This document shows, in pieces, positions 42,246 through 50,736 of a stretch of DNA of 64,000 nt. Both the position numbers and the translations under genes were made by a program. How positions within the stretch are numbered: position 1 is the first letter of the stretch; each line of letters starts with the position of its first letter. Below the pieces are notes generated by a model. It did not search any database. It was given only the letters and a program-made list of their open reading frames with translations, and was not told where the DNA came from. The stretch lies in contig JBMFRC010000001.1 in the NCBI GenBank assembly GCA_049968235.1, positions 1 through 64,000 on the forward strand, given 5' to 3'. This stretch comes from Candidatus Hydrogenedens sp. (GTDB lineage Bacteria; Hydrogenedentota; Hydrogenedentia; Hydrogenedentales; Hydrogenedentaceae).

Positions 42246-43190
42246 TTATAGAATCCCTTTAAAGTATTCAATCGTATATTTCAACCCTTCCTTAAGCGGA
42301 ATTTTTGGTTCCCAGTTCAGTTTTTCTTTCGCAAGAGAAATATCTGGTTTTCTTCGACAGGGGTCGTTTTCGGGTAGGGGTTTAAAAATAATTTCCGAAG
42401 ACGAACCTGTCATCTCACAAACTAATTTTGCCAATTCCAGAATAGTAAATTCTCCGGGATTCCCTAAATTTACAGGACCGGTAAACCCTTCACAATCCAT
42501 CATCCGAAGGATACCTTCAATTACATCGCTAATGTAACAAAAAGAGCGTGTTTGAGAACCATCTCCGAAGACAGTTATGGGTTCGTTTCGCAATGCCTGC
42601 ACAATAAAATTACTGACCACCCTTCCATCATTAATCAACATGCGAGGACCGTATGTATTAAAGATTCGTATTACACGAATGTCCACTCCATTTTGACGAT
42701 GATAATCAAAAAACAAAGCCTCCGCCACACGTTTGCCCTCATCATAACAACTACGTTTGCCAATAGGGTTCACATTGCCCCAATAGGTCTCAGGCTGAGG
42801 ATGCACAGTAGGGTCTCCGTAAACTTCTGATGTACTGGCTTGTAAAACGCGCGCCTTCACCCGTTTTGCCATACCCAATACATTTAACGCTCCCATAACA
42901 TTGGTTTTAATCGTTTTTACTGCATTGAATTGATAATGAACTGGTGAAGCCGGACACGCTAAATTAAATATTCGGTCTACTTCAAGAAGGATGGGTTCGG
43001 TTATATCATGGCGAATAATTTCAAATTGTGGATGCCCTATTATGTGCTGAATATTTTGTTTCCTACCTGTAAAAAAATTATCCAGGCAAATAACTTCCTC
43101 CCCGCGTCGCAATAAAGCCTCACACAAATGTGAACCGATAAAACCTGCCCCACCTGTAACTAAATTTACTCGTCTCATATCTTGCTCCAA
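42246..43190 (-). CDS. NAD-dependent UDP-glucuronate decarboxylase / UDP-xylose synthase-like SDR
   Basis: [36 protein letters not shown] closely matches the UXS/ArnA-type extended-SDR N-terminus. 314 aa. Confidence 0.75.
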
Positions 43191-43229
43191 ACAAGTCTGT
43201 TCTTTACTATTATATGATTTTTTCCCCGA

Positions 43230-43739
43230 TTATCCCAATTCCGAATGTATGAATGCTTCCCAATTTATTTTCACCACACCTTTTTTTACCGTTATTGGTT
43301 TGTTATGAAAACAAATTCCTGCACCATGCACCTCCCCGGGAAACAAAACCATAAATTGACCCGGCACATTTTGAATTACATTTATCTTGGATACATCTAC
43401 ATTATAAAACCTAACATCTTTTTTAATATCATACTCGGTTTTCACTTGAGCCATAGATTCAGGAAGCCATCCTATACCTTCTTCCCCTGAAAGTGAGAAT
43501 TGGACATCAATAAATTTCTTATGTGATTCAAAAATCGCTTCCGAAATTTCTTTTGTGGTATAGGACATAACCCGGGCTTTTATATCTTCTTTATAGATAA
43601 ACTCCATATCTGTATCCGGGCTATTTTCTTTTAGTCCCTGAATATAATTCAATACGAAATTTCCTATCTTCCCACGGAAATACCGTTCCCAATTTTCAAA
43701 TCGGTCAACTATCATGATTTTAACACCTCCTCGCAACAA
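43230..43739 (-). CDS. YhcH/YjgK/YiaL (DUF386) family protein
   Basis: FIDVQFSLSGEEGIGW...FMVLFPGEVHGAGICFHNKPITVKKGVVKI parallels E. coli YhcH YLDIQIVLKGQEGMTF...FVVFYPGEVHKP...VRKAVVKM. Probable start MIVDRFENW at 43715. Confidence 0.7.
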   Translation of the reverse strand: MLRGGVKIMIVDRFENWERYFRGKIGNFVLNYIQGLKENSPDTDMEFIYKEDIKARVMSYTTKEISEAIFESHKKFIDVQFSLSGEEGIGWLPESMAQVKTEYDIKKDVRFYNVDVSKINVIQNVPGQFMVLFPGEVHGAGICFHNKPITVKKGVVKINWEAFIHSELG

Positions 43740-44476
43740 GCAGTGCGTATTTTCTTTGCAAAGGACACACCCGGAATATCATAAATTTTTACAGTCCCCC
43801 CTGCAAATTTTATTAAAGCAGAACCACCTGCAATATCCCATAGCATAATTTCATCTTGAATAAAAGCGTCAATCCGACCACAGGCTACATAAGCCAGAGA
43901 TAATGCAGATGTACCTAAAAAACGAACCCTTTTATACTTCTTTAATTCATGGATATATTGCTGAAATTCATTTTCCGTATATGGACGAAACACCGGAAGT
44001 CCTGTGGCAACAATTCCATGCTTCGCCTGATTTATAGGGGAAACCTTGATGGGACTATCATTTAGGAATGCACCATTTTCCTTTGTTCCCGAAAATAATT
44101 CTTGTTTCAGAAAATCATAAACGATACCCAGTAAAAATTCATCATCTTTCATAAGAGCAATTGAGATAGCACACAACGGTATTTTCCTGCTGAAATTCAA
44201 TGTTCCATCCAATGGGTCAATTATCCAGAAAGGCTCATTCATAACATATTCACGAACCCAACCTCGTTCTTCAGATAAAATAGCAAATGGTGTCGATTCC
44301 AGCACATCTATAATTGCAGATTCAGATTCGCGGTCTGCCAGTAACTTTATGTCTCGGTCGTCTTCATAAATAACTTCGCAGGGCTCTCGAAAAAGGTCTG
44401 ATAAAATAATACCTGCTCGATGTACTGCGGTAATACCTAATTCTAAATATTCCTGAACATTCATTATAAACACCAC
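43712..44476 (-). CDS. Inositol monophosphatase family protein (IMPase/CysQ-like)
   Basis: WIIDPLDGTLNF is the IMPase metal-binding motif. 254 aa. Confidence 0.75.
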   Translation of the reverse strand: MVFIMNVQEYLELGITAVHRAGIILSDLFREPCEVIYEDDRDIKLLADRESESAIIDVLESTPFAILSEERGWVREYVMNEPFWIIDPLDGTLNFSRKIPLCAISIALMKDDEFLLGIVYDFLKQELFSGTKENGAFLNDSPIKVSPINQAKHGIVATGLPVFRPYTENEFQQYIHELKKYKRVRFLGTSALSLAYVACGRIDAFIQDEIMLWDIAGGSALIKFAGGTVKIYDIPGVSFAKKIRTACCEEVLKS

Positions 44477-44477
44477 C

Positions 44478-45146
44478 TTAATGGTATAAATTTTTACCCC
44501 GTTTCTGTGCTATAAAAGTACTGATAATATGTGTAATGATACAGAATACATCTTCAACGGGTCCGTATTCATCTTTCGTACTTGCAACAAGAAGTCCATA
44601 ATCACATAACGAAATCATTCTACCTCCGTCACAACCTGCTATACCTATCGTTTTAATTTCATGCTCCTTTGCCCATTCCACTACCTTTATAACATTGGGA
44701 CTATTCCCACTAACAGACATTGCTATTAATAAATCACCTTCCTTAGCAAAAGCACGCAATTGCCCAATAAATATGTTTTCATAACCTTCATCATTTCCTA
44801 ATGCAGTAATTACCGCCTGGTTATCTGATAAATTTATAGCACGAATAGGCGGACAATTTGTAACATAATTTCCTACGACCAAATCATTAACCCAATGAGA
44901 GAGGACTGAAGAACTACCACCGTTACCCGCAAGAAATAGGGTCTTCCCTTCACTGATTTTATTCCACATTACATCGGCTATTTTTGTTAACACATCTTTA
45001 TTTAAATGCGTAAGAATTTGGCACAAACGTTCACAATACCCATTATAGTAATCAGTAAAACTGGGAGATGATTGAAACAAATTTTTCATGAAATACATAT
45101 AAAATACTCCGTAGATTATTGTTAAAAAGATATTTAATTTTAACAT
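44478..45146 (-). CDS. gmhA: SIS-domain phosphoheptose isomerase-like protein (GmhA-like)
   Basis: TLFLAGNGGSSSVLSHWVNDL and LLIAMSVSGNSPNVIKVVEWAKEHEIKTIGIAG parallel E. coli GmhA [20 protein letters not shown] and [32 protein letters not shown]. True start probably the internal MKNLFQ. Confidence 0.7.
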   Translation of the reverse strand: MLKLNIFLTIIYGVFYMYFMKNLFQSSPSFTDYYNGYCERLCQILTHLNKDVLTKIADVMWNKISEGKTLFLAGNGGSSSVLSHWVNDLVVGNYVTNCPPIRAINLSDNQAVITALGNDEGYENIFIGQLRAFAKEGDLLIAMSVSGNSPNVIKVVEWAKEHEIKTIGIAGCDGGRMISLCDYGLLVASTKDEYGPVEDVFCIITHIISTFIAQKRGKNLYH

Positions 45147-45592: not shown

Positions 45593-45765
45593 AGATATTT
45601 TTTTCTTATCACAGAAAGCACGGAGAACACAGAGAAGGGAACAGAGAATAGGTATGAGTATGGATATATTTATTCTATGATTTATATTCTCCTTTCCTTT
45701 TTTCTCTGTGTTTCTCTGTATTCTCTGGGGTGGAGTATTTTTTTTCTCACCACAGAGAGCACTAT
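45560..45765. repeat. Degenerate CACGGAG(R)(R)AC / CAGAGAA direct repeats plus an imperfect inverted repeat
   Basis: caccacggaggacacggagggacac at 45567-45591, gcacggagaacacagagaagggaacagagaa at 45625-45650, reverse-complement-like ttttctctgtgtttctctgtattctctg at 45700-45727, and caccacagagagcac at 45749-45763. Confidence 0.5.
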
Positions 45766-45966: not shown

Positions 45967-46001
45967 CTCTTACCTCTTACCTCTTACCTCTTACCTCTTA
46001 C
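45967..46001. repeat. (CTCTTAC)x5 perfect heptanucleotide tandem repeat next to the cas2 3' end
   Basis: Direct reading: ctcttacctcttacctcttacctcttacctcttac. Confidence 0.9.
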
Positions 46002-46031: not shown

Positions 46032-46358
46032 TTATACTATAATAAGGTTGGGGTTTGAGATGGGTGTATAGTAGTTTAGTCCGTTTCTGTTGATAATTTT
46101 GATTTTATTTGCATCAGCATGGCAAAGGGGTATGATATGTATAATAAGTTGTCGGTTTTGGTCATTGGGTTGTTCGTTGGAGAGGTAATCACGAATGGTT
46201 TCCTGTAGTTTTTCGATAAGGAGTTCTTTTTCATATTCATCGAGGTCGCCCATGAAAACGGAGAATTGTATGTGCGAAGTTCCTACTTCTTCGAGGAGGT
46301 AGGTTATTTTGTTTCGTAGTTTATCGTTTCCTATGTCGAATAATAGTAGTGTTTGCAT
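46032..46358 (-). CDS. cas2: CRISPR-associated endoribonuclease Cas2 (108 aa, apparently intact ORF)
   Basis: MQTLLLFDIGNDKLRNKITYLLEEVGTSHIQFSVFMGDLDEYEKELLIEKLQETI has the Cas2 N-terminal strand (llv.YDi), helix, vF.c pattern and acidic helix. Sits 13 nt downstream of the cas1 remnant. Confidence 0.6.
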   Translation of the reverse strand: MQTLLLFDIGNDKLRNKITYLLEEVGTSHIQFSVFMGDLDEYEKELLIEKLQETIRDYLSNEQPNDQNRQLIIHIIPLCHADANKIKIINRNGLNYYTPISNPNLIIV

Positions 46359-46371
46359 AGGTTGATTTGTG

Positions 46372-47340
46372 TTATAGGTTGTATTTATTTTGTTGATTTA
46401 GGGTTTGTGTTAGTTTTATGGCTGCGAGCAGGATGTGTTTTTGGTAGTTGGTATTGGGGTCTTTGGGGGTAGGTTCATAGAGGCGTTCTATGTAAAGGGA
46501 GGAGAGTTTTTTTGTGTTTCTTTTTCGAGTAATCCGTTTTTCTGGAGTTGTACATTTATTCCTTGTCGTATGTAAGCGAGTAAGGGTGTATCGATGAGGG
46601 GTTGACGGAAAGGTTCGATAAAGAAGACGAGGGACTGTTTGTTGTTCTGTAGGGTGTGCAGAAACCCTGCATATGGGTCGAGTCCGGCGAGGGTTAAGGC
46701 ACGGAAGCATTCGGAGTAGAGGATGCCGTAACCGTAGTTGAGTGCAGAATTGACGGGGTCTTTCGAATGTCGGTGTGTTCTGTGGGTAAAGTTATAATTG
46801 GCTGGGATAAGTTGTTTGAAATATGACCAGTAGATGGATGAGGCGTGTGCTTCGGTGGACATGATTTGTTGTTTTGCGTGGGATATATTTTCAGTGTTGA
46901 TGGATTTTAATTTTTCGATGAGTGGGTAAATAGTATTGTGAAGTGTATCTTCGATTTGGGCTAAGTATGTTTTGTATCGACACAGGAATTAGAATTGGTT
47001 TTCGATTTTTGTTTGTATGTATTTTTTTGGCAATTTGTATGCCTAAGCCGTTCTGGATGGCTGTGTATTGGTTCCATCGGTTCTGGATATGGGGGTGATT
47101 GTATATAGGCTGGATAAAAGTGATGGAGTTCCCGTAGGGCTTACATACGGTTAAGGCGATGTCTTGCTGGCTTGCGAGTGAAAGTGCTTCAGCGGAGATG
47201 GAAAATCCTTGGGTGAAGATGATGATGTGTGAGAGTTTGCTGGATGGGATTGTTTTAAGGGTTTTGTTTTCGCCGATAATTTTGAACATGTTTTTGTGTC
47301 TACCGACACGGATATTCTTTTCAATAAGGATGAGATGCAT
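46372..47340 (-). pseudogene. cas1: cas1 pseudogene with at least two frameshifts
   Basis: Fragment 47340-46891 (frame 0) is the Cas1 N-terminal domain. Fragment 46862-46488 (frame 2) carries DPVNSALNYGYGILYSECFRALTLAGLDPYAGFLHT...LVFFIEPFRQPLID, the Cas1 catalytic helical core, with the conserved Asp of lv.Dl.EpFR replaced by Phe. The C-terminus returns to frame 0 at 46710-46372. Total is about 323 codons. Confidence 0.7.
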
Positions 47341-47416
47341 GTTAAAGTCCTCCTCTTCATTATTTTTATTACATCTAACCTTAAAAAGTTGTATTATTTG
47401 CTATGTATTTAGTCCC

Positions 47417-48643
47417 AATCAATTTCGAGTTTGAACCAACCCATAGGAAGGGATGCCTTTGTTATTTTTTTTGTGATGTAGTTAATTTATGAGACTTTGG
47501 ATAAGGTATTTGGTCAGAACATCTGTCTCTCTTTGCTTTTCCCCATTTTTTGTCATTTGTATCTCCTTGTGAAAATAGTAATGTTATAGTTTTTGATAAA
47601 GAACCTGTGCCATAACCTAATTGTAAAAATATTTTTTTGCCTCTTTCTATCCTAATATCTTCAGGGATGTCATATTCATTTTTATTTACAGAATTAAAGA
47701 ATTCCAGTTGTTTATCAATTAAAATTTCTGAGTATTTGCGTAAACAATCTTGAAAACTCTGTGTATCGTTAAGAACATTTTTAAGATATTTTATCTATTC
47801 TCCGTTATTATATTTATATTCATCCAACATAAATTTTAATGCTTGTTGGTCTAAATAGAAATCTATAATTATTTCTTTACCTTTAGGAATCAGGCATTCA
47901 GCAAATATATCAAATGGTTTAGTTGAAAATTTGTCTCCATTTTTACTTTTTACTTTTATTTGACATATTCCAAAATTGTCGATAGGAATCTCTTTAGAGT
48001 CTCTGATTACTAAAAATTTAAATAAATCATATTTTGCATCATAATTCGAATTATCTACTTCTAATGTAGTATATTTTTCTATATTTTTATTAAGGAGAAT
48101 ATTATTAATATTATTTGACTCTTTAATTAAACAATTAGTGACTGCATTTCTTATACATCCCTTTATACTTGAACCTGGAATAAAAAATTTCCCAAATGGG
48201 TATTTTATAAAGGAAAGGATTGGAGGAAGAGAAGTAGATTCTTGACATATAGATTTTGACTGAGAATTTTGGGATTGTTTTTTCTCAACTTGTTTCTGTA
48301 TTTTTCTTAGTTCTGGAGGAAGTGCTGTATGTTTAGGCGATATGGACCTTGATTGTTTATTTGTTTTTTCTCCTCTTGTTCCAAAATCAGCATATATAGG
48401 AAGAGAATAGCGAATATATTCAGGGTCGGGACGAAAGGAGGGTTCTTCAATAATCTTTAAATCAGTTTCATAATCTTCGCAATTATCCTGAAAATATTTC
48501 ATGACATCTTTTAGACAGAATAATAGCTGTTTCTCGTCAATGTCAATGTAATATTCAAAATTCTGATATTCTTCGCCATCTGATATATGGATGGGAGTGA
48601 TAGGTGTTAGTTTGAATTTGCCATGTTTCTTTTTATCGTTCAT
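47417..48643 (-). pseudogene. csm5: csm5 (type III-A Cas7-family RAMP) interrupted by an in-frame TAG at 47795-47797
   Basis: N-terminus KFKLTPITPIHISDGEEY and G-rich loop FFIPGSSIKGCIRN are colinear with S. thermophilus Csm5 (TFKLSLLTLAPIHIGNGEKY ... PYIPGSSLKGAIRT), as are LFKFLVIRDSKEIPIDN and LFNAIRVSDSKPFDN. After the TAG the frame continues ...IFLQLGYGTGSLSKTI... (matching Csm5 YLGAGSGAWTKTL) to a stop at 47417, about 409 codons in total. Confidence 0.7.
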
Positions 48644-48656
48644 TGTTTTTCTCCTT

Positions 48657-49595
48657 TTAAGGATGTTTGAAATAGATATTGAATGCGAGACCGGAACGCC
48701 AGATAGGATGAGGTGATGAGTCGTAACTGATGGCGATTACATCCCCCTTAGGCATTTCTTTGATAACAGGGAATTTACTTCCTTCTATACACATACGAAC
48801 AGATTGTTTGGGTTCATCATACCCGGCAATGCCATGTATCCACCCACCTCGCATAGTGCATTCATAAGATGCGATATTGGTGAGAATACCATTTTCAAAT
48901 TCTTCCAAAGTAGGATGATAAAGACTGAGTATTGCGGGACTGAGTATTGCGGTAGCTTTTGGTGGACTTTCCTGCCCACTTATTTTGAGCGTATCATTTT
49001 CTTCAATAATATATTTTGATTCGAAAGGTTCAATTTTTTTATAGTAAAATGTCCGAAACCTAAACTGCGTTCACCACCAATACCCAGTTTACCCAAAGCG
49101 GATAGAAAATTGACAAATGATTCTTTTTTCTCTTCTTCTAATTTAACAAAAAACCACAATCCGACATCTTCTTCGCTATTTATCTCATAAAAATTTTGAG
49201 GGTAGGCTGTAGTTTGATTAGTAACCCGGTCAATGACGGTGGAAATTTTATAATTTTCTTTAACGGTTTTTTTGGAGGGGAAACCTTCTTTATTATTTAT
49301 CAGGTCATTCATTTCTTCATTCAGGAGAAAAGTTGTTCCTGGATTCTCTTCATCACCGTCTAAATAGGGATAATCTTCTTTTTTTTGGGAAAAGTTCTTT
49401 TAATATTTGCTGGGTTTCTTCTGCTTTTTGGAATATTGATGAAGTGGTTAGAAGAATGACATTATCAAAATCACCAATGTTAACAGAAGAAATAATCGGC
49501 CCCTATTGTGTTCCACCGGTGGGTGCTTCATCTACTCTCCCGTAAGGGTCATTTGTTCCTACAAAACTTAACAGTAGAGAAGATTTCCTCCCCAT
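48657..49595 (-). pseudogene. csm4: csm4-like (Cas5-family RAMP) pseudogene with an in-frame TAG (49503-49505) and two homopolymer-associated frameshifts
   Basis: Three frame segments: 49595-49380 (MGRKSSLLLSFVGTNDPYGRVDEAPTGGTQ*GPIISSVNIGDFDNVILLTT...), a shift at the A8/T8 run 49379-49386, then 49378-49060 (...FVNFLSALGKLGIGGERSLGFGHFTI, resembling the Csm4 G-rich loop LQYSGLGGKRSSGFGRFEL), a shift at the T-run 49034-49041, then 49070-48657 (..LEEFENGILTNIASYECTMRGGW...). About 313 codons. Sits directly upstream of csm5, as csm4 does in III-A operons. Confidence 0.5.
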
Positions 49596-49688: not shown

Positions 49689-50069
49689 TTATTTTTCGGG
49701 GAAAGAGGAGGGGTGGGAACCGATGGCGATAATACTGCAAGCGTAGATGGGATTTAAGTTGAGTTGGATTGCCTTTTGCATAAGTTCTTCGTCTTCCGCA
49801 CCGGGGTTGATGTAAAGTTCCTCATGCTTCTTTTTAGCGATTGAGGGTAAAAGTGTTTTGCCGATTTGGGGAGGGACATAGACACTGATACGGTCGATAG
49901 GCTCGGGGACCTCCTCAATAGATTTATAGCAGGGAATTCCTTCAATTTCTGTAAGGTTTGGATTGACGGGATAAACTGTCCATCCTCTGGCAATATATGC
50001 ACGAATAGCTTTGTTGCTATATTTGTTTTTGTCTGCAGATGCACCGATGATTGCAACCGTTTTAGACAT
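49689..50069 (-). CDS. CoA-binding domain protein (YccU/YneT-like)
   Basis: MSKTVAIIGASADKNKYSNKAIRAYIARGWTVYPVNPN..IEGIPCYKSIEEVP is a CoA-binding Rossmann motif. The longer ORF-track start overlaps clpP and is rejected. Confidence 0.7.
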   Translation of the reverse strand: MSKTVAIIGASADKNKYSNKAIRAYIARGWTVYPVNPNLTEIEGIPCYKSIEEVPEPIDRISVYVPPQIGKTLLPSIAKKKHEELYINPGAEDEELMQKAIQLNLNPIYACSIIAIGSHPSSFPEK

Positions 50070-50073
50070 TGTA

Positions 50074-50736
50074 TTATTTCTCTTTTTTGGGTTTTGAGCG
50101 TTGGAGAACTTCGTCGATGAGTCCGTAATTTTTCGCTTCTTCTGCACTGAGGAATAGGTCGCGGTCGGTATCTTTACGGATAACTTCGATGGGTTGACCG
50201 GTATGTCTGGCGAGAATCTGGTCAATGGTTTCGCCGATACGAACAATTTCCTGAGCTTGAATAGCAATATCTGTTGCCTGTCCACGGACACCTCCCATGA
50301 GTTGATGTAGTAAGAAGCGTGAATAAGGGAGGGCGTAACGTTTGCCTGGAGTTCCTGCGGACATAAGCACAGCAGCCATACTTGCTGCCTGTCCAAGACA
50401 GATAGTCGTAATTTCAGGGCGTATAAATTGCATCGTGTCGTAAATAGCAAGACCTGCCGTTACACTTCCTCCCGGACTATTGATGTAAAGGTTGATATCT
50501 TTATCCGGATCTTCTGCCTCTAAATATAATAGTTGAGCAATGATATAGTTTGCGACATAATCGTCAATGGGCATACCCAGAAAGATAATTCGGTCCTCAA
50601 GCAGGCGTGAATAAATATCGTAAGCCCTCTCACCCCGACTCGTTTGCTGGTATATTGTTACCGCCTGTGGATTAATGGGGCTTTCGGAATAAGGATGAAT
50701 TCCGTGTTTAAGTAATTTTTCTATTGCTTCATGCAT
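50074..50736 (-). CDS. clpP: ATP-dependent Clp protease proteolytic subunit
   Basis: [19 protein letters not shown]..., catalytic Ser context [14 protein letters not shown], and HQLMGG. 220 aa. Confidence 0.9.

What the first reader, a model, noticed from the sequence alone, without database searches (positions are those of the whole stretch)
46032..47340. Extreme strand-asymmetric base composition confined to cas1-cas2
On the top strand this 1.3 kb is G+T-rich and almost C-free. For example 46141-46240 is T 43, G 25, A 21, C 11; 46381-46440 has only 3 C in 60 nt. The cas1/cas2 coding strand is therefore about 45% A, 30% C and 5-12% G. The skew starts at the cas2 stop and ends at the cas1 start; the neighbouring csm5/csm4 remnants and all host genes are ordinary AT-rich with little skew. 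The encoded Cas1/Cas2 are correspondingly poor in Gly/Ala/Val/Asp/Glu and enriched in Ile/Lys/Asn/Thr/Ser/His compared with family consensus (Cas2 GqRvQnSVF appears as SHIQFSVF), which is what strand-specific G-to-A change on the coding strand would produce. Two explanations are possible: (a) the cas1-cas2 adaptation module came separately from a donor replicon with extreme strand bias; (b) the region suffered strand-specific cytosine deamination-like hypermutation (C to T on the top strand) during or after decay. Either would be unusual for a chromosomal cas locus.
Basis: seen in the sequence. Interest (0 to 1): 0.75.

Follow-up and report, generated by a model that had tools for sequence, protein, structure and literature searches.

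The report
Inherited strand-skew island over cas1-cas2
The lopsided base composition of these decaying cas1-cas2 genes is real, but it is an old trait shared with intact, functional copies in related bacteria and kept up over long evolutionary time, so it is not damage from gene decay and its cause is still unknown.

Summary
Window 46032-47340 has top-strand GC skew +0.47, against a window mean of 0.02 (SD 0.11), and is the single extreme in 64 kb.

The host is a Candidatus Hydrogenedens MAG whose type III-A CRISPR locus has decayed. cas1 is a pseudogene and the cas2 ORF is intact. At least six other lineages carry intact orthologues (69-78% identical Cas1, catalytic residues kept, dN/dS 0.04-0.17). 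One of them is syntenic with the window. All show the same or stronger skew: four-fold sites C 0.43-0.62 and G 0.01-0.07, against about 0.16 and 0.15 in host genes.

Synonymous sites between lineages are about 80-95% turned over, so the skew is a locally maintained equilibrium. It is neither decay-linked hypermutation nor an unameliorated donor relic.

The skew affects all 21 codon families, inverts host codon usage, and halves the share of residues with G-starting codons (17% against 37%). It also reaches non-coding flanks, and csm5/csm4 in some lineages. It has the same sign as the chromosome's background neutral-site asymmetry but is about six times stronger.

My best guess is a chronic strand-asymmetric mutation pressure, mitochondrial-type, tied to the active locus. 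Selection for G-poor, C-rich mRNA is the main rival. The mechanism is unresolved.

The parts
46032..46358 (-). cas2, intact 108-aa ORF. Coding strand is A 0.40, C 0.26, G 0.11, T 0.23; four-fold sites are C 0.36, G 0.03.
   Evidence: Pfam PF09827 E=5.5e-10. PADLOC Cas2. NCBI name 'CRISPR-associated endonuclease Cas2 [Candidatus Hydrogenedens sp.]'. Composition.
46372..47340 (-). cas1 pseudogene, about 322 codons when repaired. Coding strand is A 0.37, C 0.31, G 0.11, T 0.21; four-fold sites are C 0.49, G 0.05.
   Evidence: Pfam PF01867 on two ORF fragments. Three-frame translation. 77-78% identity to intact P0001 and P0002. Composition.
47022..47028 (-). Frameshift 1: poly-A run of 7 on the coding strand. 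The same-species contig L008 has 6, which restores the frame.
46989..46991 (-). In-frame TAA stop where relatives have CAA (Gln). This is a coding-strand C>T change and is shared with L008.
46622..46623 (-). Junction of a 3-nt deletion that removes the conserved Asp of the 'DFIE' metal-binding motif. Shared with L008.
46507..46513 (-). Frameshift 2: poly-A run of 7 where 8 are needed. Shared with L008.
47341..47440 (-). Region upstream of cas1 with a GAGGAGG ribosome-binding site and a weak -35/-10 match. The skew switches on just downstream of it. This stretch itself has no skew or a slightly opposite one.
47795..48643 (-). Truncated csm5 (282 aa against 423-439 aa in relatives). No whole-sequence skew here, but four-fold G is 0.05.
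   Evidence: Pfam RAMPs. PADLOC Csm5..
48657..49312 (-). csm4 fragments (83-aa Csm4_C and a 110-aa RAMP piece). rtcR, cas10, csm2 and csm3 of the syntenic intact locus are missing from the window.
45967..46001 (.). (CTCTTAC)5 tandem repeat just past the cas2 stop, marking the 3' end of the skewed interval. L008 has six copies. No CRISPR array follows in the window.

Best explanation
What it is (shown). The interval is the decayed remnant of the adaptation module (cas1-cas2) of a type III-A CRISPR-Cas locus in a Candidatus Hydrogenedens genome. Its extreme strand asymmetry is not a product of the decay. It is an inherited, clade-wide property of this module, present in intact, selectively constrained orthologues. 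It has been held at a local compositional equilibrium through enough time to turn over about 80-95% of synonymous sites. On the coding strand, C is favoured and G avoided at every codon position and in every codon family. The same holds in transcribed-looking non-coding flanks, and it has dragged the proteins' amino-acid composition with it.

How it most likely works (inferred). A chronic, strand-asymmetric, nucleotide-level mutation pressure acts on this transcription-unit-sized segment. It enriches keto bases (G, T) on the strand antisense to the cas genes, through C>T and A>G changes there. This is the same kind of asymmetry that single-strandedness produces on the mitochondrial heavy strand. 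Here it is a roughly six-fold local exaggeration of the chromosome's own replication-type neutral-site asymmetry. It appears to depend on an active locus. It is strongest, and extends into csm5 and csm4, in lineages whose csm genes are intact. In this window's dead locus it shows no sign of continuing, so the window's copy is a fossil that has begun to erode. What exposes or resynthesises that strand is not established. Candidates are antisense transcription, replication-transcription conflict, and error-prone resynthesis.
For: Skew confirmed and unique in the window.

Intact orthologues share it. cas1 coding-strand GC skew is -0.43 to -0.60 in L001-L006, L009 and L010. L001 is syntenic: tig-clpP-CoA_binding-rtcR-cas10-csm2-5-cas1-cas2. 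Catalytic columns are conserved and dN/dS is 0.04-0.17.

It is maintained, not a relic. pS is 0.65-0.74. Four-fold identity is only 0.03-0.14 above chance, i.e. 5-21% identity by descent, while C4 stays at 0.41-0.63 in every lineage. A relic relaxing toward host C4 of 0.16 would need an ancestral C4 of 0.8 to over 1. Host genes between the window and L001 are also deeply diverged, with identity by descent of 0.15-0.26.

It acts at the nucleotide level. All three codon positions are shifted. All 21 codon families shift the same way and invert host usage, including that of rpoB, rpoC, tig and clpP. Non-coding tails 30-240 nt past cas2, which do not align between lineages, are G-poor. In L013 the csm5-cas1 spacer (-0.50) and post-remnant DNA (-0.54) are skewed. 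The lineage-specific orf90 insertion has G 0.095.

Regional, lineage-variable extent: csm4 -0.33, csm5 -0.53 and cas1 remnant about -0.7 in L013, and csm5 -0.32 in L006.

Directional history: 32 G-losing against 4 G-gaining replacements relative to 116 outgroups. Out-of-clade cas1 genes are ordinary.

Same sign as the background: host top-strand GC4 skew is +0.14 +/- 0.23 regardless of gene orientation, against +0.82 and +0.87 here.

mtDNA precedent for a G-rich, C-poor single-stranded strand produced by C>T and A>G changes, with a gradient (PMC9561281).

Erosion in the dead locus: 19 first- and second-position singletons in window cas1 against 6-7 in intact lineages, and over cas1+cas2 A>G 7 against G>A 2.
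Against: No direct evidence for any strand-exposing process. Promoter and terminator scans are at chance level, and no element downstream of cas2 is conserved.

The one good antisense sigma-54 motif is confined to the L001/L003 lineages.

The pattern is not purely transitions. Purines fall to 0.22-0.37 at four-fold sites, C rises at the expense of both A and T, and L006 shows many apparent A>C changes.

T>C is not enriched among amino-acid replacements, at 2 against 6.

Non-coding tails are G-poor but less C-rich (0.2-0.35) than four-fold sites. This hints at a coding-linked or RNA-linked component.

The change at the csm5|cas1 boundary is step-like, not a smooth gradient, in most lineages. 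That shape would also suit selection on one transcript.

No gene on the opposite strand lies within an old part of the island, so strand independence of the bias could not be tested. The IS fragment in L009 is too recent to be informative.

Sense-strand transcription-associated deamination predicts the opposite sign.

Ancestral-state counts are unreliable at this composition.
Confidence: 0.55

Rival explanations
1. Selection on the transcript. The cas1-cas2 mRNA (and the csm5/csm4 mRNA in some lineages) is kept G-poor and C-rich because that composition is useful. One possibility is an unstructured, Rho-loading ('rut'-like) RNA whose expression depends on tight coupling or anti-termination, keeping the potentially autoimmune adaptation genes low. 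Another is a transcript that escapes a G-dependent ribonuclease active during the type III response.
For: The unit is transcript-shaped. It switches on sharply at the cas1 start after an unskewed RBS region and ends 30-240 nt after the cas2 stop. The step at the csm5|cas1 boundary is abrupt. G avoidance extends into the likely 3' UTR. C enrichment is stronger in coding sequence than in the tails. The skew seems to relax only where the locus is dead. C-rich, G-poor RNA is the known Rho substrate (my own knowledge), and Rho control of CRISPR transcripts is documented (PMC7665894 and PMC6700203, titles and abstracts). The intact locus has a CARF-sigma54 regulator and no recognisable Csm6/Csx1.
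Against: It would require weak selection at nearly every site, strong enough to halve the use of Gly, Ala, Val, Asp and Glu in an enzyme under dN/dS 0.04-0.17. A rut site needs only about 80 nt. The L013 cas1 remnant, the csm5-cas1 spacer and post-remnant DNA are as skewed as coding sequence or more so. No G-specific RNase is evident in the loci. The sign coincides with the chromosome's background mutational asymmetry, which selection would not predict.
Confidence: 0.25
2. First reader's (a), in its strongest form. The module lives mainly on an unsampled mobile replicon (plasmid or virus with strand-displacement or rolling-circle replication) that has genome-wide extreme skew. Chromosomal copies are repeated, fairly recent imports by recombination into type III-A loci and are now ameliorating.
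For: Codon usage is the inverse of the host's. The clade is isolated, with nothing between about 70% and 37% identity. The 5' extent of the skew varies, as recombination breakpoints might. The csm5-cas1 spacer is a divergent patch between otherwise near-identical L009 and L010. The window pseudogene trends toward G gain.
Against: No clade member was found on 2.9 million viral contigs or 72,556 plasmids. Every copy sits downstream of csm5 in a chromosomal-looking AT-rich context, and two are syntenic next to tig-clpP. cas1 and csm5 relationships are congruent, and L009/L010 are 90-100% identical across csm4-cas2 with no cassette breakpoint. Four-fold sites are as saturated as, or more saturated than, flanking host genes. 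The reservoir would still need the same unexplained mechanism, and no bacterial replicon with GC4 skew of -0.7 to -0.97 is known (my own knowledge).
Confidence: 0.1
3. First reader's (b). A burst of strand-specific cytosine deamination (C>T on the top strand), enzymatic or spontaneous, hit this segment during or after its decay in this genome.
For: Low G and high A on the coding strand. cas1 is a pseudogene in a decayed locus. Amino-acid changes relative to the wider family are dominated by G>A.
Against: Intact orthologues in at least six lineages have the same or stronger skew. The single stop codon is CAA>TAA, not TGG>TAG/TGA. Coding-strand C is enriched two- to four-fold at synonymous sites. 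There is no TC/CC-type context signature: residual top-strand C contexts resemble the genome's, apart from a mild CpG excess. Window-specific changes are A>G 7 against G>A 2.
Confidence: 0.02
4. Translational selection or amino-acid-level adaptation, i.e. preferred C-ending codons or a protein that needs few Gly, Ala, Val, Asp and Glu residues.
For: C3 is somewhat higher in clpP and rpoB/C than in average host genes.
Against: Highly expressed host genes still prefer T-ending codons (Asn AAT 0.79, Asp GAT 0.73). cas1/cas2 invert this in all 21 families. C4 is more than 5 SD above host genes. Non-coding flanks are affected. A requirement on the protein cannot explain synonymous sites.
Confidence: 0.02

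Closest known systems
Strand compositional asymmetry of vertebrate mitochondrial DNA (heavy strand G-rich and C-poor through C>T and A>G changes while single-stranded)
   Same: Same amino/keto polarity and a similar magnitude at neutral sites: sense-strand four-fold sites are C-rich (0.43-0.65), G is nearly absent (0.01-0.07) and T is reduced. The asymmetry is strong enough to reshape protein composition, and there are hints of a positional gradient (csm4 < csm5 < cas1). Precedent documented in PMC9561281.
   Different: Here it covers 1.3-3 kb inside a bacterial chromosome, not a whole replicon. The boundaries are step-like at gene or transcript ends. No strand-displacement replication is known here. 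Purine loss at four-fold sites shows that transversions also contribute.
Replication-associated GC skew of bacterial chromosomes
   Same: Same sign as the window's own background: the top strand is G>C at four-fold sites irrespective of gene orientation.
   Different: About six-fold stronger than the background (+0.82/+0.87 against +0.14), confined to one operon segment, and sharply bounded. Replication skews are replichore-wide and far weaker.
Transcription-associated mutational asymmetry (C>T deamination of the non-transcribed strand in bacteria; my own knowledge of work by Beletskii & Bhagwat and Francino & Ochman)
   Same: The affected segment is transcription-unit-sized and strand-specific.
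   Different: That process depletes C on the coding strand. Here the coding strand is C-rich, so sense transcription predicts the opposite sign. Only antisense transcription would fit, and no conserved antisense promoter was found.
APOBEC-type G-to-A hypermutation of retroviral or retroelement DNA, and bacterial deaminase toxin mutagenesis
   Same: Strand-specific G loss on the coding strand, with G>A dominating amino-acid replacements.
   Different: Those are bursts that inactivate genes, create TGG>TAG/TGA stops, have dinucleotide contexts, and do not enrich C. Here the genes stay functional under purifying selection, the skew is at equilibrium, and C is enriched.
Compositionally atypical horizontally acquired DNA undergoing amelioration (Lawrence & Ochman concept; my own knowledge)
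   Same: Codon usage and composition are foreign-looking relative to the host.
   Different: Atypical DNA normally differs in GC content, not in a -0.7 to -0.97 strand skew at neutral sites, and it converges on the host over time. Here synonymous sites are saturated yet the skew persists in every lineage.
Rho-utilisation (rut) regions: C-rich, G-poor, unstructured RNA (my own knowledge)
   Same: The cas1-cas2 transcript has a C/G ratio of about 2.5-4 over more than 1.3 kb, which is the composition Rho prefers.
   Different: rut sites are about 80 nt and are not known to span whole genes or reshape protein composition.

Membership tests
Cas1 (PF01867) integrase | Significant match to the Cas1 profile | tested here: met
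   PF01867 E=2.7e-14 and 8.7e-34 on the two window fragments. P0002 matches PADLOC Cas1 at E=4e-67.
Cas1 (PF01867) integrase | Intact reading frame with the conserved acidic/His catalytic residues | tested here: not met
   The window copy has two frameshifts, a TAA stop and loss of the Asp codon in 'DFIE'. Relatives P0001-P0004 are intact, with E163, H228 and E243 invariant. The window gene is a Cas1 pseudogene.
Cas2 (PF09827) | Profile match, intact ORF, adjacency to cas1 | tested here: met
   PF09827 E=5.5e-10. 108-aa ORF 13 nt downstream of cas1. Same arrangement in all relatives.
Type III-A (Csm) CRISPR-Cas locus | cas10/csm1, csm2, csm3, csm4 and csm5 effector genes | tested here: not met
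   The window keeps only csm4 fragments and a truncated csm5. The syntenic relative L001 has the full set plus an RtcR-type CARF regulator. The window is a decayed III-A locus.
Type III-A (Csm) CRISPR-Cas locus | Adjacent CRISPR array | tested here: not met
   No repeats within 45-50 kb and no copy of the clade repeat in the window. Arrays are present 550-780 nt after cas2 in L002 and L003.
   Intact orthologues are equally or more skewed.
   C is enriched at synonymous sites in all families. No distinctive context. The only stop is CAA>TAA.
   C4 is more than 5 SD above and coding GC skew more than 5 SD below host genes. Codon usage is inverted.
   Four-fold sites retain 5-21% identity by descent between lineages yet all remain skewed. 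Syntenic and co-diverged with host genes.
   No clade member on viral contigs or plasmids. No intermediate homologues. Unsampled donors cannot be excluded.
Single-strand-exposure (mitochondrial-type) mutational asymmetry | Keto (G+T) enrichment of one strand, strongest at neutral sites | tested here: met
   Top strand G+T is 0.68. Four-fold sense C is 0.43-0.65 and G 0.01-0.07.
Single-strand-exposure (mitochondrial-type) mutational asymmetry | Bias follows the DNA strand irrespective of gene orientation and coding status | tested here: inconclusive
   Non-coding flanks and spacers are skewed. No long-resident opposite-strand gene lies inside the island, and the IS fragment in L009 is a recent insertion.
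Single-strand-exposure (mitochondrial-type) mutational asymmetry | Demonstrated source of single-strandedness (replication mode, antisense transcript, R-loop) | not testable with these tools
   Only consensus scans were possible, and they were at chance level. The antisense sigma-54 motif is not conserved.
Rho-dependent (rut-like) regulatory RNA | C-rich, G-poor transcript | tested here: met
   Coding strand C is 0.26-0.37 and G 0.09-0.13 across the clade.
Rho-dependent (rut-like) regulatory RNA | Rho-dependent termination or regulation of the transcript | not testable with these tools
   Needs transcriptomics or genetics in an uncultured lineage.

The most novel reading that the evidence does not exclude
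A bacterial chromosome contains a gene-scale 'mitochondrial-type' mutational island. The adaptation unit of an active type III-A CRISPR locus is subject to a dedicated, chronic, strand-specific mutational process. This could be persistent single-strandedness of the antisense strand from antisense transcription or replication-transcription conflict. More radically, it could be recurrent resynthesis of that strand from the transcript or sense strand by an error-prone polymerase or reverse transcriptase. The process has been running long enough to rewrite both codon usage and protein composition while the enzymes stay functional, and it stops when the locus dies.
Probability: 0.3. Interest if true: 0.8.

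Novelty: new variant of a known kind. Interest (0 to 1): 0.6.

Why it matters
Strand compositional asymmetries are normally replichore-wide and weak, or organelle-wide and strong. An extreme asymmetry sharply bounded to 1.3-3 kb and maintained through synonymous-site saturation in functional bacterial genes is not something I could find described.

If mutational, it would reveal a locus-specific mutagenic state at a CRISPR adaptation module, such as persistent single-strandedness, conflict or resynthesis. It would also give a natural experiment on how far mutation pressure can push an enzyme's amino-acid composition: Cas1 retains function with half the usual Gly, Ala, Val, Asp and Glu.

If selective, it would point to an unrecognised layer of control, or protection, of cas1-cas2 transcripts in type III systems.

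Practically, it is a caution. Composition-based calls of 'foreign DNA' or 'hypermutated pseudogene' can be wrong when orthologues are not examined.

Tried and rejected
1. Parsimony polarisation of terminal-branch changes gave C>T far above T>C. I rejected it as an artefact. At saturated sites with C about twice T, 'all others agree' is about (piC/piT)^4 times likelier for C. I replaced it with the four-fold identity-by-descent test and with singletons restricted to first and second positions.

2. Antisense promoter hypothesis. Sigma-70 and terminator scans were at chance level. The tails after cas2 do not align. A near-consensus antisense sigma-54 motif inside cas2 looked promising because the intact locus has an RtcR-type activator, but it exists only in L001/L002 and L003.

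3. A double-strand break or integration-linked gradient from the CRISPR array. Rejected because the leader region between cas2 and the array is unskewed or opposite.

4. The L013/L014 cas1 remnant as a test of mutation against selection. It has the strongest skew, but it still shows codon periodicity, so it is not decisive.

5. The opposite-strand IS1595 fragment in L009 as a test of strand independence. The insertion is too recent, because L009 is 97% identical to L005/L010, which lack it.

6. Apparent cas1/csm5 incongruence between L009 and L010. It is explained by an indel-rich patch in csm5, not by a cassette breakpoint.

7. Searches for a reservoir: genome contigs returned only the L001 contig, viral contigs returned nothing, and plasmid hits were at most 31% identical.

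8. orf90 has no homologues or domains.

9. No Rfam family on either strand.

10. A 21/27 match to the clade CRISPR repeat at window position ~316 is isolated, so it is chance.

11. Literature searches for precedent found none.
Full report
OBSERVATION. The interval 46032-47340 is A 0.217, C 0.108, G 0.299, T 0.377 on the top strand, giving GC skew +0.47 and AT skew -0.27. For 1309-nt windows across the 64 kb, GC skew is 0.024 +/- 0.113, and all 25 most extreme windows overlap this interval. A fine profile puts the boundaries within about 30 nt of the cas1 start and the cas2 stop.

ANATOMY. On the minus strand lie an intact 108-aa cas2 (46032-46358; PF09827) and a cas1 pseudogene (46372-47340; PF01867 on two fragments). 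cas1 carries four lesions:
- a poly-A frameshift at 47022-47028;
- a CAA>TAA stop at 46989-46991;
- a 3-nt deletion at 46622/46623 that removes the conserved Asp of 'DFIE';
- a second poly-A frameshift at 46507-46513.
A second assembly of the same species (L008, about 99.7% identical) shares the stop, the deletion and the second frameshift, so the pseudogenisation is real and not an assembly error. Upstream lie a truncated csm5 and csm4 fragments. No CRISPR array remains. Exact protein look-ups identify the source as a Candidatus Hydrogenedens sp. MAG.

THE KEY COMPARISON. Cas1 has only a handful of close relatives among 5.8 billion clusters. Four are intact proteins at 69-78% identity, and then nothing until about 32%. 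An exhaustive HMMER pass over 1.84 billion representatives confirms the gap. Their contigs, plus further metagenomic members, give at least six independent lineages (L001/L002, L003/L004, L005/L010, L009, L006, L013/L014). L001 is syntenic with the window (tig-clpP-CoA_binding, then rtcR-cas10-csm2-csm3-csm4-csm5-cas1-cas2), so it is the undecayed version of this locus. In every lineage the intact cas1 and cas2 carry the same or stronger skew: cas1 coding strand G 0.09-0.12, C 0.28-0.37, GC skew -0.43 to -0.60. Catalytic columns are invariant and dN/dS is 0.04-0.17. Out-of-clade cas1 genes (L015-L018) are compositionally ordinary. The skew therefore predates the decay seen in the window and exists in functional genes.

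RELIC OR MAINTAINED? Synonymous differences between lineages are at the ceiling (pS 0.65-0.74). At four-fold sites in conserved codons, observed identity exceeds the composition-based chance expectation by only 0.03-0.14. That is about 5-21% residual identity by descent, yet every lineage sits at C 0.41-0.63 and G 0.01-0.07. Host genes in the window have C4 0.157 +/- 0.05 (maximum 0.30) and G4 0.154 +/- 0.05. If the module were relaxing toward host composition, the common ancestor would have needed C4 of about 0.8 to over 1. Host genes flanking the locus in the window and L001 are themselves deeply diverged at four-fold sites (identity by descent 0.15-0.26). So the module has been at this chromosomal site through that whole period, and cas1-cas2 has turned over at least as much (0.05). 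cas1 and csm5 relationships are congruent. The one apparent exception (L009 against L010) is due to an indel-rich patch inside csm5, not a cassette breakpoint. No clade member occurs on viral contigs or plasmids.

NATURE OF THE PRESSURE. It is more than G-to-A.
- G falls at first positions (0.14-0.18 against 0.29 +/- 0.04) and at second positions.
- C rises at first positions (0.26-0.34 against 0.17).
- At third positions C reaches 0.35-0.60 while G drops to about 0.05.
- In all 21 multi-codon families C-ending codons gain and G-ending codons lose. This inverts the usage of the host, including rpoB, rpoC, tig and clpP, which prefer T-ending codons. Translational selection is therefore excluded.
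- The proteins have followed. Gly+Ala+Val+Asp+Glu are 16.8% against 37.2 +/- 2.7% in 116 homologues.
- Relative to family-conserved residues there are 32 G-losing single-step replacements (19 of them G>A) against 4 G-gaining. T>C is not enriched at replacement sites, at 2 against 6.
- Non-coding DNA is affected too. The 30-240 nt after cas2, which do not align between lineages, are G-poor. The lineage-specific orf90 insertion has G 0.095. In L013 the csm5-cas1 spacer (-0.50) and the DNA after the cas1 remnant (-0.54) are skewed.
- The extent varies by lineage. It covers only cas1-cas2 in the window, L001, L003, L005 and L009. It includes csm5 (-0.32) in L006, and csm4 (-0.33; C4 0.57) and csm5 (-0.53; C4 0.55, G4 0.01) in L013.
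- The leader region between cas2 and the array is not skewed.

RELATION TO THE BACKGROUND. At four-fold sites the window's top strand is G>C in most genes whatever their orientation (+0.14 +/- 0.23), which is a replication-type asymmetry. cas1 and cas2 have the same sign at +0.82 and +0.87, and the most extreme host genes reach +0.49 to +0.57. The island is therefore a roughly six-fold local exaggeration of the background asymmetry and not something of opposite or alien polarity.

MECHANISM (inferred). The antisense strand is keto-rich (G+T 0.68). This is the polarity produced when a strand spends time single-stranded and suffers C>T and A>G changes, as documented for the mitochondrial heavy strand, including neutral-site composition close to what is seen here (PMC9561281). 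Sense-strand transcription-associated deamination predicts the opposite sign. So the candidates are:
- exposure of the antisense strand, through antisense transcription or replication-transcription conflict, given that the cas genes lie on the background C-rich strand;
- repeated error-prone resynthesis of that strand;
- selection on the transcript.
I found no conserved antisense promoter. Scans are at chance level. A near-consensus antisense sigma-54 motif inside cas2 was attractive because the intact locus starts with an RtcR-type CARF-sigma54 activator, but it is confined to L001/L003.

In the window's dead locus, first- and second-position singletons are about three times more numerous in cas1 than in intact lineages (19 against 6-7). 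Over cas1+cas2 they show A>G 7 against G>A 2, and G gains 9 against losses 3. The numbers are small, but they suggest the pressure no longer acts here. That fits either a process that needs an active locus or relaxed selection. The heavily decayed L013 cas1 remnant has the strongest skew (-0.72) next to intact csm genes, but it retains codon periodicity and so is not decisive.

Arguments for mutation over selection:
- all sites and all codon families are affected;
- non-coding DNA is included;
- the cost to protein composition is large;
- the sign coincides with the background mutational asymmetry.
Arguments for selection:
- the boundaries are transcript-shaped and step-like;
- C enrichment is weaker in the tails than at four-fold sites;
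- C-rich, G-poor RNA is the Rho substrate, and Rho control of CRISPR transcripts is known (PMC7665894 and PMC6700203).
I put chronic local mutation pressure at about 0.55, transcript-level selection at about 0.25, and a skewed mobile reservoir at about 0.10. Decay-linked hypermutation and translational selection get about 0.02 each.

COMPARISON WITH KNOWN THINGS. The genes are ordinary members of Cas1 and Cas2, within a decayed type III-A locus. The next-nearest Cas1 relatives (30-37% identity) include RT-Cas1 and Cas6-RT-Cas1 fusions. The compositional phenomenon resembles mitochondrial strand asymmetry in polarity and magnitude, and bacterial replication skew in sign. It differs from both in being gene-scale, sharply bounded and chromosomal. 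It differs from APOBEC-type hypermutation in that it is an equilibrium state in functional genes, with C enrichment. It differs from unameliorated foreign DNA in that it persists through synonymous saturation. Literature searches found no description of such an island at a cas locus or elsewhere in bacterial chromosomes. That is absence of evidence within the searched library only.

VERDICT. The feature is a real, inherited and actively maintained strand-skew island, and the window holds a fossil copy of it. The mechanism is unresolved. I score interest at 0.6 because the phenomenon is unusual and testable with existing metagenomic reads and metatranscriptomes, but it may yet prove a compositional curiosity of one clade.

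Noticed in passing
window 42246-45146: A four-gene block (UDP-glucuronate decarboxylase-like, a 169-aa ORF, an inositol-monophosphatase-like gene and a SIS-domain gene) is the only part of the window whose four-fold-site GC skew has the opposite sign to the background (top strand -0.18 to -0.40 against +0.14). It may be an inverted or acquired sugar-metabolism island that abuts the dead CRISPR locus.
   Followed up: no
L001 11516-11531 (-), L002 2768-2783 (-), L003 1467-1482 (-): A near-consensus sigma-54 -24/-12 motif (TGGCAT-N5-TTGCA) lies on the antisense strand inside the 3' end of cas2, in loci headed by an RtcR-type CARF-AAA-HTH sigma-54 activator. This could be cOA-responsive antisense control of cas2-cas1 in that sub-lineage. 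It is absent from the other lineages and from the window.
   Followed up: partly
L001 1672-3192: The intact type III-A locus begins with an RtcR_PspF2-type CARF-AAA+-HTH regulator (PADLOC E=1.8e-112). It has no recognisable Csm6/Csx1 effector within the 11.8 kb available. The gene is deleted in the window.
   Followed up: partly
window 45967-46001; L008: A (CTCTTAC)n tandem repeat sits immediately after cas2, with 5 copies in the window and 6 in the same-species contig L008, so it is a length-variable microsatellite.
   Followed up: partly
window 45700-45727; L003 ~1780-1830: Short CAGAGAA(A/C)A-type repeats occur downstream of cas2 in both the window and L003. They may be a remnant of a leader element.
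   Followed up: no
L001 11000-11272 / L002 2252-2524: A 90-codon ORF is inserted between cas1 and cas2 only in this lineage. It has no homologues in the other loci and no Pfam or PADLOC hit. It is G-poor (0.095) but lacks third-position C enrichment, so it may not be coding.
   Followed up: partly
L009 4811-5380 (-): A truncated IS1595 (ISXO2-like) transposase gene was inserted about 100 nt after cas2 since the split from L005/L010. Its coding strand is G-rich (+0.42), so the cas-sense strand stays C-rich through it. Given how recent the insertion is, this is probably coincidental.
   Followed up: partly
P0132, P0135, P0139, P0200 (one search hits): Many of the next-nearest Cas1 relatives (30-35% identity) are RT-Cas1 or Cas6-RT-Cas1 fusion proteins. 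The skewed clade itself has no RT in the sequence available.
   Followed up: partly
window 49689-50450: The 253-aa ORF is over-extended. By comparison with L001 and L008, the real CoA-binding-domain gene is the C-terminal 126 codons. The upstream ~380 nt is probably the scar left by deletion of rtcR-cas10-csm2-csm3.
   Followed up: partly
L009 3259-3458 vs L010: The csm5-cas1 intergenic region is a divergent patch (62-89% identity, with gaps) between two loci that are otherwise 96-100% identical on both sides. So the spacer at the skew's 5' boundary is a local hotspot of change or replacement.
   Followed up: no
L013 2139-2750 / L014: This is a second, independently decayed copy of the module. 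cas1 is reduced to residues 1-164 with two frameshifts and internal stops, next to intact-looking csm4 and csm5 that are themselves strongly skewed. Loss of the adaptation module therefore seems recurrent in this clade.
   Followed up: yes
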